Source of the DNA: an uncultured Rhodospirillales bacterium
GTDB taxonomy: Bacteria > Pseudomonadota > Alphaproteobacteria > RF32 > CAG-239
NCBI GenBank assembly: GCA_902795665.1
Contig: CADBMA010000159.1
Location: 1 to 26,527 of the forward strand
DNA length: 26,527 bases
Reading direction: 5' to 3'
This document shows positions 9,829 to 12,627 of the stretch, one piece after another. Under the pieces are notes generated by a model. It was not told the origin of the DNA. It saw only the letters and a program-made list of their open reading frames with translations, and searched no databases. Position 1 is the first letter of the stretch; each line of letters starts with the position of its first letter. The position numbers and the translations under genes are program-made.

Positions 9829-10422
9829 TTATATTTCTTTACGGGAATTAAGCGCCAATTGCAAAGTTCCCTCGTCCATATAATCTAACTCAGCTCCTAC
9901 CGGAATGCCTTGGGCAAGTGTGGTTGTTTTGATGACGGTGTCTTTTAATCTTGAAACTAAGTAGTGTGAGGTTATTTTGCCGTCAATAGTTGCCGGCAGG
10001 GCTAATATAACTTCTTTAATCTCACCATCTGACACTCTGTTAAATAACGAATCAATATTTAAATCCTCAGGAGCCACGCCGTTTAAAGCGGACAATACTC
10101 CTCCCAGTACATGATACTGCCCGTGATAAAATCCGGAGCGCTCCATAGCCCACAAATCAGCAACATCTTGAACTACGCACACAATTGCTTTGTCGCGTTT
10201 TGCAGATTCGCATATTGCACAGGGAGAAGACGTGTCAAAATTGCCGCAGATATCACAGGTCTTTATATTATCAGCAACCCCCTGCATAGCCTCAATCAAC
10301 GGCAATAGAGCCGATTCTTTTTTCTTAATCAAGTGCAAAACTATCCTACGCGCTGAACGCGTGCCTAAAGACGGCAGTTTGGCAATAATTTTAACCAGTT
10401 TTTCTATATCCTGTCCGGCCAT
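9829..10422 (-). CDS. recR: Recombination mediator RecR
   Basis: LPSLGTRSARR, C4 zinc finger CDICG…CAIC, Toprim YHVLGG, GELDY-like GAELDYMDEGTL. Confidence 0.97.
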   Translation of the reverse strand: MAGQDIEKLVKIIAKLPSLGTRSARRIVLHLIKKKESALLPLIEAMQGVADNIKTCDICGNFDTSSPCAICESAKRDKAIVCVVQDVADLWAMERSGFYHGQYHVLGGVLSALNGVAPEDLNIDSLFNRVSDGEIKEVILALPATIDGKITSHYLVSRLKDTVIKTTTLAQGIPVGAELDYMDEGTLQLALNSRKEI

Positions 10423-10433
10423 GATATTATTTC

Positions 10434-10757
10434 CTAAAATGGCAGCTTGAGACCACCCAAATTAAGTCCTCCGGTAATATCTTTCATGCCCTCGCTCATC
10501 ATAGCCTCAGCCTTATGCTGAGCATCGTTGCACGCAGCTACAATAAGATCTTCAAGTATCTCGGCATCGTCTTCATTTAACAATGATTTATCAATCTGAA
10601 CCTTTTGAGTTGTCATTTTTCCGGTCATGGTAACTTTTACCATACCCCCGCCGCTTGTGCCGACGACCTCAGTTTGCGCCAATTTTTCTTGCGCTTCCTC
10701 CATTTTTTTCTGCATCAATTGAGCTTGTTTCATAAGACCTTGCATATTCATCATCAA
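10434..10757 (-). CDS. ybaB: Nucleoid-associated protein YbaB/EbfC
   Basis: MKQAQLMQKKM, SGGGMVKV, EILEDLIVAA; located between dnaX and recR. Confidence 0.96.
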   Translation of the reverse strand: MMMNMQGLMKQAQLMQKKMEEAQEKLAQTEVVGTSGGGMVKVTMTGKMTTQKVQIDKSLLNEDDAEILEDLIVAACNDAQHKAEAMMSEGMKDITGGLNLGGLKLPF

Positions 10758-12463
10758 TCAAATACCTCATTTATAAAATCATCGTTATTATCAAAATTTT
10801 CTTTTTCCTCTTCAGCAATTTTGCGAATCAATGTTTCGATTTTGGCACCTCTAAACTCTGCCAACACTGCCTTTACTAAAGGGTCTTCGGCAACATTTTT
10901 CTGTTCGGCTTCTTTTCTGGCTTTTTCAATATTTGCCATACTCAAAATTACCTCGCCGGGGATAATATCTAAAGTCCATTTTTGTCCGGTTGCGCTTTCC
11001 AAGATTTTACCTATTGTAATTACAAAATCAGACGCAATACGATCATCAGCTTTGAATTTCATGTTTCCATTACCGAACTCGGTGACTTCGATATCATTTT
11101 TAATAATATATACCAAGCGTAGTTGTTTTTGCTCCTCAAGATAGCATATAAAATCTTCAATTTTTTCAAACTGTAATGCTGTTTTTGGGGCAACACTTCG
11201 TGGTGTTATCTGAATATTGTCATAATTCTCATTTGCATCATAAGACGCTGGGTCAGCAATAGTGTGTTTGGGGTTTATGTCAGATTTTTTTTTTACACTC
11301 TCGAGCAGTTCTGCCGGAGTTGGAAGATTTGCCGAATAAGCAATTCTTATTAATATCATCTCCAAAGCATCAATCGGCACCGGTGCGTTTTGGATTTCTC
11401 CCAGTCCTTTGATTAGCATTTGCCATATTCTTGAAAGCAGTGCAATATTTGTTTTTGCCGACATCTCTTTCAGAAAATTTCGATCTGTCTCACTAAGCCT
11501 ATCATCTTTTATAAAATCTGGAATTAACAATATTTTGGTCAGAGAATGCGTAATTCCGATAAGGTCATTAAGAATTGCTGTCGGATTGGCTCCGTTTTTA
11601 TAAATTTCTTGAAGTTTGCTAACCAAGGCGGACATATTTCCATCCATCAGGTTTTCAAAAATTTCAAATGCTTGGCCGCGATCAGCCATGCCCAACATTT
11701 CTTTAACAATATCAACACGAATTTTTCCGCTGCCGAGAGAAATAGCCTGATCCAAAAGCGACAGACCATCGCGCGCCGAACCATCAGCCGCCGCAGCAAT
11801 CATGTGCAGAGCTTCATCATCTGCCTTAAGATTTTCTGCTGTTACAATTTTATTGAAGAGCTTCATAAGGTCTTCAATTTGCAGGCGCTGCAAGTCAAAC
11901 CTCTGACAACGCGATAAAACTGTTACCGGCACTTTGCGAATTTCGGTAGTAGCAAAAATAAATTTTACATGAGCTGGCGGCTCTTCAAGAGTTTTAAGCA
12001 GTGCATTAAAAGCATTTTTCGATAGCATATGCACTTCATCGATAATGTAAATTTTGTAGCGGCAGTTTGTCGGCTTGTAACGCACACCATCTAAAATATC
12101 GCGGATATCATCTACACCGGTGCGCGAAGCTGCATCAAGCTCCAAAACATCAATATTGCGTCCGGCAGCAATTGATTTGCAGTTTTCGCAGACACCGCAA
12201 GGGTGAGTGGTCGGACCGCCTTTGCCGTCAGTGCCGATACAGTTAAGAGCCTTTGCAATAAGCCTTGCGGTTGTTGTTTTTCCCACTCCGCGAATGCCGG
12301 TCAAAATATAAGCATGGTGTAGCCGATTTGATTTTATGGCATTAGTCAAGGTTTGCACCAAAGCATCTTGTCCCAGCAAATCTTCAAAATTCTGAGGACG
12401 ATACTTGCGTGCTAAAACCACATAATCTTCTTGTTTTTCTTCTTCTGCCATAATTTTTTTCAT
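10754..12463 (-). CDS. dnaX: DNA polymerase III subunit gamma/tau
   Basis: LARKYRP, Walker A GIRGVGKTT, zinc motif CG.C..C, IIDEVHML, SRC motif. The start could be 12463 or 12451. Confidence 0.98.
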   Translation of the reverse strand: MKKIMAEEEKQEDYVVLARKYRPQNFEDLLGQDALVQTLTNAIKSNRLHHAYILTGIRGVGKTTTARLIAKALNCIGTDGKGGPTTHPCGVCENCKSIAAGRNIDVLELDAASRTGVDDIRDILDGVRYKPTNCRYKIYIIDEVHMLSKNAFNALLKTLEEPPAHVKFIFATTEIRKVPVTVLSRCQRFDLQRLQIEDLMKLFNKIVTAENLKADDEALHMIAAAADGSARDGLSLLDQAISLGSGKIRVDIVKEMLGMADRGQAFEIFENLMDGNMSALVSKLQEIYKNGANPTAILNDLIGITHSLTKILLIPDFIKDDRLSETDRNFLKEMSAKTNIALLSRIWQMLIKGLGEIQNAPVPIDALEMILIRIAYSANLPTPAELLESVKKKSDINPKHTIADPASYDANENYDNIQITPRSVAPKTALQFEKIEDFICYLEEQKQLRLVYIIKNDIEVTEFGNGNMKFKADDRIASDFVITIGKILESATGQKWTLDIIPGEVILSMANIEKARKEAEQKNVAEDPLVKAVLAEFRGAKIETLIRKIAEEEKENFDNNDDFINEVFD

Positions 12464-12473
12464 TCAAAAAAAG

Positions 12474-12563
12474 GCGGAGGAACACCGACCTCAAGCGGAT
12501 TCGTTACGGCTGCTTCCTTCCGAACCTGACCGGGTTGGCGAAAGCCTGACCCGATGCCCTCCA
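12474..12563 (-). ncRNA. ffs: Signal recognition particle 4.5S RNA
   Basis: Minus strand contains TCAGGTTCGGAAGGAAGCAGC (domain IV with GGAA tetraloop) in a long hairpin GGAGGGCATCGG…TCGGTGTTCCTCC; canonical position upstream of dnaX. Ends are approximate. Confidence 0.95.
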
Positions 12564-12627
12564 TTAATATTGTACTATAATGGACAGATTTTTAATTTAA
12601 TTTCAAGCAAAAAATATTCTCTATCCT

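What the first reader, a model, noticed from the sequence alone, without database searches (positions are those of the whole stretch)
11260..11300. dnaX A10 run after domain III: candidate gamma/tau recoding site
Seen: the coding strand reads …GAG AGT GTA AAA AAA AAA TCT GAC ATA A… (10 A; T run 11285-11294 on +), right after the domain III end (AYSANLPTPAELL) and before a low-complexity linker. One extra A, or a -1 shift, gives ATC TGA: one residue then stop. One fewer A gives AAT CTG ACA TAA. Both alternative frames make a product of about 390-395 aa. Established: E. coli makes gamma by a -1 frameshift followed by one codon and UGA; Thermus thermophilus makes it by transcriptional slippage on a poly-A run. 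Inference: this alphaproteobacterium makes both tau and gamma, probably by slippage, since I see no strong downstream hairpin or clear internal SD. Caveat: A8-A9 runs occur elsewhere in this AT-rich window.
Basis: partly seen in the sequence, partly recalled or inferred. Interest (0 to 1): 0.7.

Follow-up and report, generated by a model that had tools for sequence, protein, structure and literature searches.

The report
Conserved poly-A slippage site in dnaX
A run of ten A's in the DNA-replication gene dnaX of this uncultured rumen alphaproteobacterium is a slip site conserved across its whole order; it very probably lets one gene make both a long (tau) and a short (gamma) clamp-loader protein, a trick already known from Thermus.

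Summary
dnaX (window 10754-12463, minus strand, 569 aa) has an A10 run (11285-11294) six residues after the last residue that aligns with crystallised E. coli gamma. One extra A gives ...KKKI-stop. One fewer A gives ...KKNLT-stop.

It is not an AT-bias accident:
- It is the only A/T run of 10 or more inside a long ORF in the 1.1-Mb genome.
- 136 of 137 species genomes from 24 genera of the order keep A9 or A10 at this exact place. Neighbouring synonymous sites are randomised and the linker downstream cannot be aligned.
- Both off-frame stops stay within a few codons, although they change between TAA, TAG and TGA.
- The one genome that lost the run also lost both stops.

E. coli-type stimulators (A_AAA_AAG, SD, stem-loop) are absent.

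In a same-genus gut species, public assemblies carry A10 on hundreds of contigs and A11 on more than a thousand. With A11 the zero frame gives gamma, and tau can only come from slippage.

No RNA or protein data covered the site, so transcriptional and ribosomal slippage cannot be separated.

This is a new, well-supported member of a known kind (Thermus-type dnaX slippage). The scan has already noted similar dnaX sites in about 150 other genomes.

The parts
10754..12463 (-). dnaX CDS (tau, 569 aa, 63.6 kDa)
   Evidence: ORF. NCBIfam PRK09111 at 720 bits and Pfam domains. Similar to E. coli gamma/tau structures, E 1e-94.
11297..12463 (-). Domains I-III (residues 1-389), the part shared by tau and gamma
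   Evidence: Pfam DNA_pol3_delta2 32-194, ATPase lid 203-246 and DNA_pol3_gamma3 250-389. The alignment to E. coli gamma ends at residue 384.
11285..11294 (-). A10 slippery run (third base of Val390 plus Lys391-393)
   Evidence: It is the only coding A/T run of 10 or more in the genome. A9 or A10 is kept in 136 of 137 genomes of the order. Third-position entropy inside the run is 0-0.15 bit, against 1.2-1.95 bit in the flanks.
11280..11282 (-). TGA read after one extra A or a -1 shift (product ...KKKI, 394 aa)
   Evidence: A stop in this frame lies 1-11 nt after the run in 136 of 137 relatives, as TAA in 56, TGA in 43 and TAG in 38.
11275..11277 (-). TAA read after one fewer A or a +1 shift (product ...KKNLT, 395 aa)
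   Evidence: A stop in this frame lies 4-19 nt after the run in 135 of 137 relatives.
11165..11284 (-). Variable linker (residues 394-433), present in tau only
   Evidence: No Pfam domain. Column entropy is about 1.9 bit across the family, so it cannot be aligned.
10835..11164 (-). Tau-specific C-terminal domain (PF12362/DUF3646, residues 434-543)
11297..11320 (-). Possible nascent-RNA hairpin ending 2 nt before the run (weak, genus-level only)
   Evidence: a 9-bp imperfect stem; the 121-nt fold has z -2.8; present in most of the 26 same-genus sequences (78% of cells paired, against 30-53% for slid controls). The pairs are almost all invariant, and the family as a whole has no consensus structure.

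Best explanation
The A10 run is a programmed slippage site that makes one dnaX gene give two clamp-loader subunits. Transcripts or decoding events that keep the templated length (or change it by a multiple of 3) give full-length tau (569 aa). Tau carries the linker and the C-terminal domain that tethers the polymerase. Events that add or lose one or two A's meet a stop 1-3 codons later in either other frame. They give gamma (393-396 aa, about 44 kDa), which ends just after the collar domain III. The most likely slipping machine is RNA polymerase on the rA:dT hybrid, as shown for the A9 run of Thermus thermophilus dnaX. Ribosome sliding or a -1 shift on the same A's may contribute. Shown here: the anatomy, the nucleotide-level conservation of the run and of both off-frame stops, the absence of E. 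coli-type stimulators, and natural out-of-frame alleles in a sister species. Inferred: that mixed mRNAs and a gamma protein are actually made, and at what ratio.
For: (1) Anatomy as in Thermus: an A run at the domain III/linker junction with stops in both non-zero frames (Thermus described in PMC1088944, and PMC5009743). (2) It is the only coding A/T run of 10 or more in a genome where runs of 9 or more are sharply depleted: 986, 228, 24 and 2 for lengths 7-10. PMC1088944 reports selection against such runs from about 9 nt. (3) Of 137 species genomes (24 genera, two families, the whole order as sampled), 136 have A9 (83) or A10 (53) at the same codons, although N-terminal identity falls to 62-66%. 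(4) The constraint acts on nucleotides. The third base of the preceding Val/Ile/Leu codon is A (entropy 0.15 bit), although GTA, ATA and TTA are each only about 20% of their codon families. Both Lys codons are always AAA (AAA is 80% genome-wide). Flanking third positions show 1.2-1.95 bit. Two species moved the run by one base (ATT/GTT AAA AAA AAA ACT) and kept exactly ten A's. (5) Both off-frame stops are kept close to the run while they change between TAA, TAG and TGA and while the zero-frame residues change among D/E, S and N/K. In G000's long ORFs about 2% of codon positions have both stops as close as the typical site, and about 10% as close as the widest case seen. (6) The single genome with a broken run (G104: GTT AAA AAC AAG) has its first off-frame stops 99 and 146 nt away and no other A run of 8 or more in the linker. 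(7) Natural role reversal. In a same-genus species (dnaX about 97% identical to G001 and G010), 15 of 15 contigs fetched through the gamma-length product have A11, so the zero frame ends ...KKKI-stop and the tau part is out of frame. That product is on record on 935, 256, 111 and 44 contigs. A10 full-length forms are on several hundred, and A12 and A9 forms on a few tens. One A11 contig and one A10 contig from different samples are identical over 2,558 flanking bases. Tau's role is to tether the clamp loader to the polymerase and helicase (established knowledge; see also the preprint 10.1101/2022.11.10.516041). A11 cells therefore have to recode at the run. (8) G046 (another genus) has a 10-nt insertion just after the run. 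It puts the rest of tau in the +1 frame and removes the +1 stop.
Against: There is no direct evidence of expression. Every public run holding this DNA was available only as contigs, and the RNA contigs did not cover 11039-11494. Conserved stops in both frames also fit ribosome sliding, which goes into several frames (PMC4363877), so sequence alone does not prove the transcriptional level. About a dozen A9/T9 runs lie in other possible ORFs of this genome, so A9 is not absolutely excluded from coding DNA. The species are related, so 136 of 137 overstates the number of independent trials. The A11 allele evidence comes from a sister species, not from the window's own species, where both DNA contigs laid show A10.
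Confidence: 0.7

Rival explanations
1. The recoding is translational. Ribosomes shift -1 on A_AAA_AAA (or A_AAA_AAC in the A9 species), or slide on the poly-A tract, and stop at the nearby off-frame stops. RNA polymerase copies the run faithfully.
For: The run contains in-phase X_XXY_YYZ heptamers. E. coli ribosomes slide on iterated AAA codons into several frames and stop at out-of-frame stops, robustly from A11 and detectably with three AAA codons (PMC4363877). E. coli dnaX itself uses a -1 shift (PMC3711429).
Against: None of the E. coli stimulators is present. There is no A_AAA_AAG. An SD-like 4-mer occurs upstream in only 21 of 136 sequences and not in the window. The downstream 50 nt fold no better than shuffles (mean z -0.33). 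Rfam's DnaX element gives no hit at E up to 10. A heptamer needs 7 bases, yet selection keeps 9-10 A's, including a synonymous third position outside the heptamer. A +1-frame stop is not needed for a -1 shift but is conserved. A_AAA_AAA is reported as much less shift-prone than A_AAA_AAG in E. coli (PMC5009743). The genome also has a tRNA-Lys(CUU) besides UUU.
Confidence: 0.2
2. The tract is only a DNA-level contingency locus. Replication slippage makes A9, A10 and A11 subpopulations, and the short product comes from out-of-frame cells, with no slippage in RNA or translation.
For: Run length really varies in DNA assemblies of a sister species (A9, A10, A11; a product on record implies A12), and it switches on identical backgrounds.
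Against: Out-of-frame cells would lack tau, which links the clamp loader to the polymerase and helicase, so they could not persist. Yet the A11 product is on record on more than a thousand contigs, up to 575 kb long. All 28 species representatives of the genus with a match, and 136 of 137 in the order, are in frame. That is not what a freely switching neutral locus would give.
Confidence: 0.04
3. The run is a neutral by-product of a conserved Lys-Lys-Lys/Asn motif in an AT-rich genome. If a gamma exists, it is made otherwise, for example by ClpXP processing of tau as in Caulobacter.
For: AAA makes up 80% of Lys codons. The only alphaproteobacterium studied, Caulobacter, makes gamma by proteolysis.
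Against: With about 20% usage of the NNA codon before the run and 80% AAA, an unconstrained site would give A9 or more in only about one lineage in eight, against 136 of 137 observed. Both off-frame stops are conserved although they code nothing in the zero frame. Run and stops were lost together in G104. 78 of 81 other alphaproteobacterial dnaX genes have no A run of 7 or more at this position. The three with one are L026 (A9, same order), L092 (A9) and L027 (A7); AT-rich genes are among those without one.
Confidence: 0.04

Closest known systems
Thermus thermophilus dnaX programmed transcriptional slippage (Larsen et al. 2000 PNAS 97:1683, as described in PMC1088944 and PMC5009743)
   Same: Tau is encoded in a single ORF. 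A sense-strand poly-A run (A9 in Thermus; A10 here, A9 in most of the family) sits before the tau-specific part. Stops lie close by in both non-zero frames, so any non-multiple-of-3 slip gives gamma.
   Different: The phylum differs (Alphaproteobacteria, a gut lineage with 40% GC). Here the site lies directly at the end of domain III (codon 390 of 569), whereas PMC1088944 places the Thermus run seven-eighths of the way along the gene. Expression is untested here. A sister species shows DNA-level A10/A11 polymorphism.
Two-ORF dnaX genes in which tau requires recoding at a poly-A run (Antonov et al. 2013, PMC3711429)
   Same: The same kind of A9-A10 tract sits at the gamma/tau junction. The A11 alleles of the same-genus species and the G046 gene have exactly this layout: gamma in the zero frame and tau out of frame.
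   Different: In the window's own gene tau is in frame. The published cases named in the passages I read are Chlorobi (Chlorobium, Chloroherpeton), and no alphaproteobacterium is named there. Here both layouts coexist within one species.
E. coli dnaX -1 programmed ribosomal frameshift (A_AAA_AAG, upstream SD, downstream stem-loop; Rfam DnaX element)
   Same: The outcome is the same: gamma ends one codon plus a stop after the shift, as with KKKI-TGA here.
   Different: None of the three signals is present. The E. coli site lies about 55 residues further into the protein, at residue 430 by my own knowledge, against a position equivalent to about E. coli 373-376 here.
Caulobacter crescentus gamma made by ClpXP partial proteolysis of tau (Vass and Chien 2013, as cited in PMC5009743 and 10.1101/2022.11.10.516041)
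   Same: Same class of bacteria and the same need for two DnaX forms.
   Different: The mechanism is post-translational and needs no slippery run. Most other alphaproteobacterial dnaX genes sampled here, GC-rich with Pro/Ala linkers, look like that type and lack the run.

Membership tests
Thermus-type dnaX transcriptional slippage | Sense-strand homopolymeric A run of about 9 or more inside dnaX | tested here: met
   A10 at 11285-11294.
Thermus-type dnaX transcriptional slippage | The run lies between the clamp-loader core (domains I-III) and the tau-specific domains | tested here: met
   Codons 390-393. Domain III ends at 389, and PF12362 starts at 434.
Thermus-type dnaX transcriptional slippage | Stop codons close by in both non-zero frames | tested here: met
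   TGA 2 nt and TAA 7 nt after the run. Conserved in 135-136 of 137 relatives.
Thermus-type dnaX transcriptional slippage | The run is conserved at nucleotide level among relatives | tested here: met
   136 of 137 genomes; third-position entropy 0-0.15 bit against 1.2-1.95 bit in the flanks.
Thermus-type dnaX transcriptional slippage | The mRNA population varies in A-run length while the DNA is uniform | not testable with these tools
   Only contigs were available, and the RNA contigs did not cover the site.
Thermus-type dnaX transcriptional slippage | A gamma protein of the predicted size and C-terminus is made | not testable with these tools
   No proteomic data. Predicted products are 393-396 aa, about 43.7 kDa.
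E. coli-type dnaX -1 ribosomal frameshift | In-phase A_AAA_AAG heptamer | tested here: not met
   The run is followed by TCT, so there is no AAG. Family members read AAA AAA AAC or AAA AAA AAA.
E. coli-type dnaX -1 ribosomal frameshift | Shine-Dalgarno-like stimulator upstream | tested here: not met
   None within 20 nt in the window; present in 21 of 136 relatives.
E. coli-type dnaX -1 ribosomal frameshift | Stable stem-loop a few nt downstream | tested here: not met
   The downstream 50 nt give a mean z of -0.33; the window gives -6.6 kcal/mol, z -1.3. No Rfam DnaX element at E up to 10.
Two-ORF dnaX (tau needs recoding) | Zero-frame stop right after the run, with the tau C-terminal part in another frame | tested here: not met
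   In the window tau is one 569-aa ORF. The feature is met in A11 alleles of a same-genus species and in G046.
Caulobacter-type proteolytic gamma | Gamma arises by ClpXP partial degradation of full-length tau | not testable with these tools
   This is a biochemical property, and no sequence test was run.

The most novel reading that the evidence does not exclude
The tract works at two levels. RNA polymerase slippage always supplies both tau and gamma. Heritable DNA-level length changes (A10 to A11 and back) flip which product is the default. Strains of one gut species would then differ in their tau:gamma ratio, making this a contingency locus inside an essential replication gene. In the window's organism the A10 state would be one setting of this switch.
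Probability: 0.2. Interest if true: 0.65.

Novelty: new member of a known kind. Interest (0 to 1): 0.4.

Why it matters
Why bacteria keep two DnaX forms is still an open question, and three unrelated ways of making them are known. The only alphaproteobacterium studied (Caulobacter) uses proteolysis. This finding shows that a whole order of gut Alphaproteobacteria instead carries a Thermus-like poly-A site. By NCBI names these are the 'Azospirillum sp. 51_20 / CAG' group, which I recall GTDB files as RF32/CAG-239. That adds an independent origin and strengthens the case that gamma is selected for. The A10/A11 polymorphism in an abundant sister species is a ready-made natural experiment. The same strain background exists with tau or with gamma as the templated product. 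Slippage efficiency and the consequences of the tau:gamma ratio could therefore be measured in existing metagenome and metatranscriptome data. Practically, dnaX genes of this group that look truncated or split at this site should not be annotated as pseudogenes.

Tried and rejected
1. RNA evidence. The look-up of sequencing runs found 20 runs holding part of the gene (bovine, sheep and other gut metagenomes), all kept as contigs. Read laying on two RNA and two DNA runs placed RNA contigs on parts of dnaX but none on 11039-11494, so they say nothing about slippage. The sheep DNA contig spans the site without an indel.
2. The search for related loci in genome contigs returned only distant Alphaproteobacteria (50% identity or less). 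It gave no name for the close relatives, but it served as an outgroup set.
3. The full-length protein search listed only full-length relatives, because truncated forms score lower. Searching residues 1-396 was needed to see the gamma-length forms.
4. An exact look-up of G046's 419-aa zero-frame product found no record, so that split gene rests on one MAG.
5. Family-wide RNA structure. RNAalifold on the 36 nt upstream of the run gave no consensus. The genus-level hairpin has almost no covariation, so I do not claim it as a stimulator.
6. Rfam gave no DnaX frameshift element.
7. Larsen et al. 2000 (PMC26496) is not held, so Thermus details are cited through PMC1088944 and PMC5009743.
8. The 'stops inside' flags for G013 and G045 lie upstream of the start codon and do not bear on the site.
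9. A literature search for dnaX + gamma + tau + slippage + Alphaproteobacteria found no paper.

Full report
**The observation.** On the minus strand the window encodes a 569-aa ORF at 10754-12463. It is dnaX: NCBIfam PRK09111 scores 720 bits. Pfam finds the AAA+ module, the lid, domain III (residues 250-389) and the tau C-terminal domain PF12362 (434-543). The coding strand reads GAG AGT GTA AAA AAA AAA TCT GAC ATA AAC, so the A10 run occupies 11285-11294. Similarity to crystallised E. coli gamma ends at residue 384, which is E. coli 367. The run (codons 390-393) therefore begins six residues after the last residue that aligns with it. One extra A gives ...KKKI-TGA (394 aa). One fewer gives ...KKNLT-TAA (395 aa). 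+2A and -2A give 396 and 393 aa. All are about 43.7 kDa, against 63.6 kDa for tau.

**Is it more than chance?**
- The 1.10-Mb assembly (GC 40%, about 90% complete) has 986, 228, 24 and 2 A/T runs of 7, 8, 9 and 10 nt, and none longer.
- The drop steepens from about 2.6-fold per base (lengths 5 to 7) to about 4-fold (7 to 8) and about 10-fold from length 8 upward. Baranov et al. attribute this pattern to selection against slippage-prone runs (PMC1088944).
- The only other 10-mer lies in no ORF of 120 aa or more, so dnaX has the only coding run of 10 or more.

**Relatives.**
- All 24 same-genus genomes in the first search have exactly ten A's at the same place. The downstream linker is completely different in each.
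- Two of them read ATT/GTT AAA AAA AAA ACT instead of GTA AAA AAA AAA TCT. The run moved by one base, but its length was kept.
- I then fetched the site from 111 further genomes of the family, covering 23 genera, and from the one genome of the sister family. The order as sampled consists of these two families.
- Of 137 sequences, 83 have A9 (GTA AAA AAA AAC TCT ...), 53 have A10 and one has a broken run.
- A9 and A10 differ by a substitution at the last base, not by an indel, so the frames are the same.

**The constraint acts on nucleotides.**
- Third-position entropy is 1.2-1.95 bit in the 12 codons upstream. It is 0.15 bit in the Val/Ile/Leu codon before the run and 0.00 and 0.06 bit in the two Lys codons. 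Every linker column shows about 1.9 bit.
- In this genome GTA, ATA and TTA are each only about 20% of their codon families, and AAA is 80% of Lys codons. An unconstrained site would therefore keep nine or more A's in roughly one lineage in eight.

**The off-frame stops.**
- With one extra A, a stop follows 1-11 nt after the run in 136 of 137 sequences. With one fewer A, it follows 4-19 nt after the run in 135 of 137.
- The stops change identity (TAA 56, TGA 43 and TAG 38 in the first frame). The overlapping zero-frame residues vary among D/E, S and N/K. So the stop is selected, not the amino acid.
- In G000's long ORFs, only 2.3% of codon positions have both off-frame stops as close as the typical site. 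9.8% have them as close as the widest case seen.
- The single genome with a broken run (G104, GTT AAA AAC AAG) has its first off-frame stops 99 and 146 nt away and no other A run of 8 or more in the linker. Run and stops were lost together.
- These species are related, so the counts are not independent trials. The saturation of neighbouring synonymous sites shows that there was ample time to lose the run.

**Outside the order.** I located the homologous position in 81 other alphaproteobacterial dnaX genes. Besides the sister-family genome L026 (A9, same order), an A run of 7 or more occurs there only in a Marinicaulis MAG (A9, with a stop right after one extra A) and in L027 (A7). AT-rich genes such as a Pelagibacteraceae MAG and a goat-omasum MAG lack one at this position. 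AT bias therefore does not explain the run.

**Which mechanism?**
- The E. coli signals are absent. There is no A_AAA_AAG. An SD-like 4-mer lies within 20 nt upstream in 21 of 136 sequences and not in the window. The 50 nt downstream fold no better than shuffles (mean z -0.33). Rfam's DnaX element is not found at E up to 10.
- Selection keeps nine or ten A's, more than a heptamer needs. It also keeps a +1-frame stop that a -1 shift does not need. This is the logic of the Thermus site, where RNA polymerase makes mRNAs with variable A numbers and stops in both other frames give gamma (PMC1088944; PMC5009743).
[quoted passage not shown] It is robust at A11 in E. coli systems (PMC4363877), so a translational contribution cannot be excluded.
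- I put about 0.7 on a mainly transcriptional mechanism and about 0.2 on a mainly translational one.

**A natural experiment.**
- Searching with residues 1-396 found gamma-length proteins among close relatives. They end ...KKKI or ...KKNLN.
- Cluster look-ups show that the ...KKKI form is on record on 935, 256, 111 and 44 contigs, counted over its exact sequence variants. A form ending ...KKKNLNQVP, which implies A12, is on 25 contigs.
- All 15 contigs fetched through these products carry A11. They come from different samples and assemblers and are up to 575 kb long. Their dnaX is about 97% identical to that of G001 and G010, two species of the window's genus whose representatives have A10. 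Two further contigs (L260, L261) carry A9.
- Full-length A10 forms of the same species are on several hundred contigs. One of them bears the NCBI name 'Azospirillum sp. 51_20'.
- One A11 contig and one A10 contig from different samples are identical over 2,558 flanking bases. A11 appears at three or more places on the tree of these contigs.
- So in a sister species the DNA tract switches length, and the allele that encodes gamma in the zero frame is common. Tau's job is to link the clamp loader to the polymerase and helicase. Such cells can only live if slippage at the run restores the tau frame.
- This is the role reversal that Atkins et al. predicted for sites with efficiency near 50%. It is also the two-ORF layout that Antonov et al. 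described in other phyla.
- A second case is G046, in another genus. A 10-nt insertion right after the run puts the rest of tau in the +1 frame and removes the +1 stop. It rests on one MAG.
- By contrast, all 28 species representatives of the genus with a match, and 136 of 137 in the order, are in frame. The in-frame state is therefore the usual one, as in the window.

**What is missing.** There is no RNA or protein evidence. All public runs that hold this DNA were available as contigs only, and the RNA contigs did not cover the site.

**Organism.** It is an uncultured alphaproteobacterium from bovine and sheep gut metagenomes. NCBI labels its relatives 'Azospirillum sp.', 'Rhodospirillales bacterium' or 'Alphaproteobacteria bacterium'. 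From memory, GTDB files that group under RF32/CAG-239. I did not test this.

**Comparison and novelty.**
- The site works like Thermus dnaX and meets every sequence-level criterion of that type. It fails the criteria of the E. coli type.
- The only alphaproteobacterium studied, Caulobacter, makes gamma by proteolysis. A literature search found no paper combining dnaX slippage with Alphaproteobacteria.
- This scan has already recorded similar dnaX poly-A sites in about 150 other genomes, including one in another uncultured alphaproteobacterial clade.
- It is therefore a well-supported new member of a known kind. The extra point of interest is the within-species A10/A11 polymorphism.

Noticed in passing
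window 12470-12565 (-): Bacterial small SRP RNA (ffs; Rfam RF00169, 66 bits) lies directly upstream of dnaX. This gives the conserved ffs-dnaX-ybaB-recR block (ybaB 10434-10757, recR 9829-10422, both on the minus strand).
   Followed up: partly
L262-L276 (A11), L277-L286 (A10), L260 (A9); same-genus species: DNA-level length polymorphism of the dnaX tract within one abundant gut species. A11 puts gamma in the zero frame, and its product is on record on more than 1,000 contigs. A10 forms are on several hundred. A11 and A10 occur on identical flanks (L264 and L283).
   Followed up: yes
L243 (G046, genus g22), about 2655-2760 of the reverse strand: dnaX is split. A 10-nt insertion just after the A9 run moves the rest of tau to the +1 frame and removes the +1-frame stop. 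The zero frame ends 35 codons later, right after a second A10 run. Only one MAG carries it, and its exact product was not found elsewhere.
   Followed up: partly
L245, L251-L259 (genus g22), about 100 nt downstream of the first run: A second conserved A8-A10 run (GAA AAA AAA AAT ...) lies inside the tau linker of this genus. Its meaning is unknown.
   Followed up: no
L215 (G104, genus g37): This is the only genome of 137 with the run broken (GTT AAA AAC AAG). Both off-frame stops are gone too, and the linker has no other A run of 8 or more. It is a natural loss-of-site control.
   Followed up: partly
L100, L092, L027 (other Alphaproteobacteria): L100 is a 36%-GC MAG labelled Paracoccaceae. It has an A12 run 166 nt after domain III, a zero-frame stop right after the run and an open -1 frame, which is a two-ORF layout. 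L092 (Marinicaulis, 60% GC) has A9 at the same position as the window, with TGA after one extra A. L027 has A9 111 nt into the linker, with stops in both frames. These look like independent poly-A sites in the class.
   Followed up: partly
L025 (G023), codon 298 upstream of the run: An in-frame TGA replaces a Cys of the DnaX zinc module (PCGI*ENCKS). The MAG is fragmented (270 contigs) and dnaX is split over two contigs, so a sequencing error is likely.
   Followed up: no
window 11297-11320 (-): An imperfect 9-bp RNA hairpin ends 2 nt before the run. It is present in most same-genus sequences but with almost no covariation, and it is absent in other genera. Hairpin-stimulated transcriptional slippage is known from IS630 (Penno et al. 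2015, cited in PMC5009743). I do not claim it here.
   Followed up: partly
genome contig C1 7003-7012: This is the only other A/T run of 10 in the genome, a T10 in an AT-rich stretch with no ORF of 120 aa or more.
   Followed up: partly
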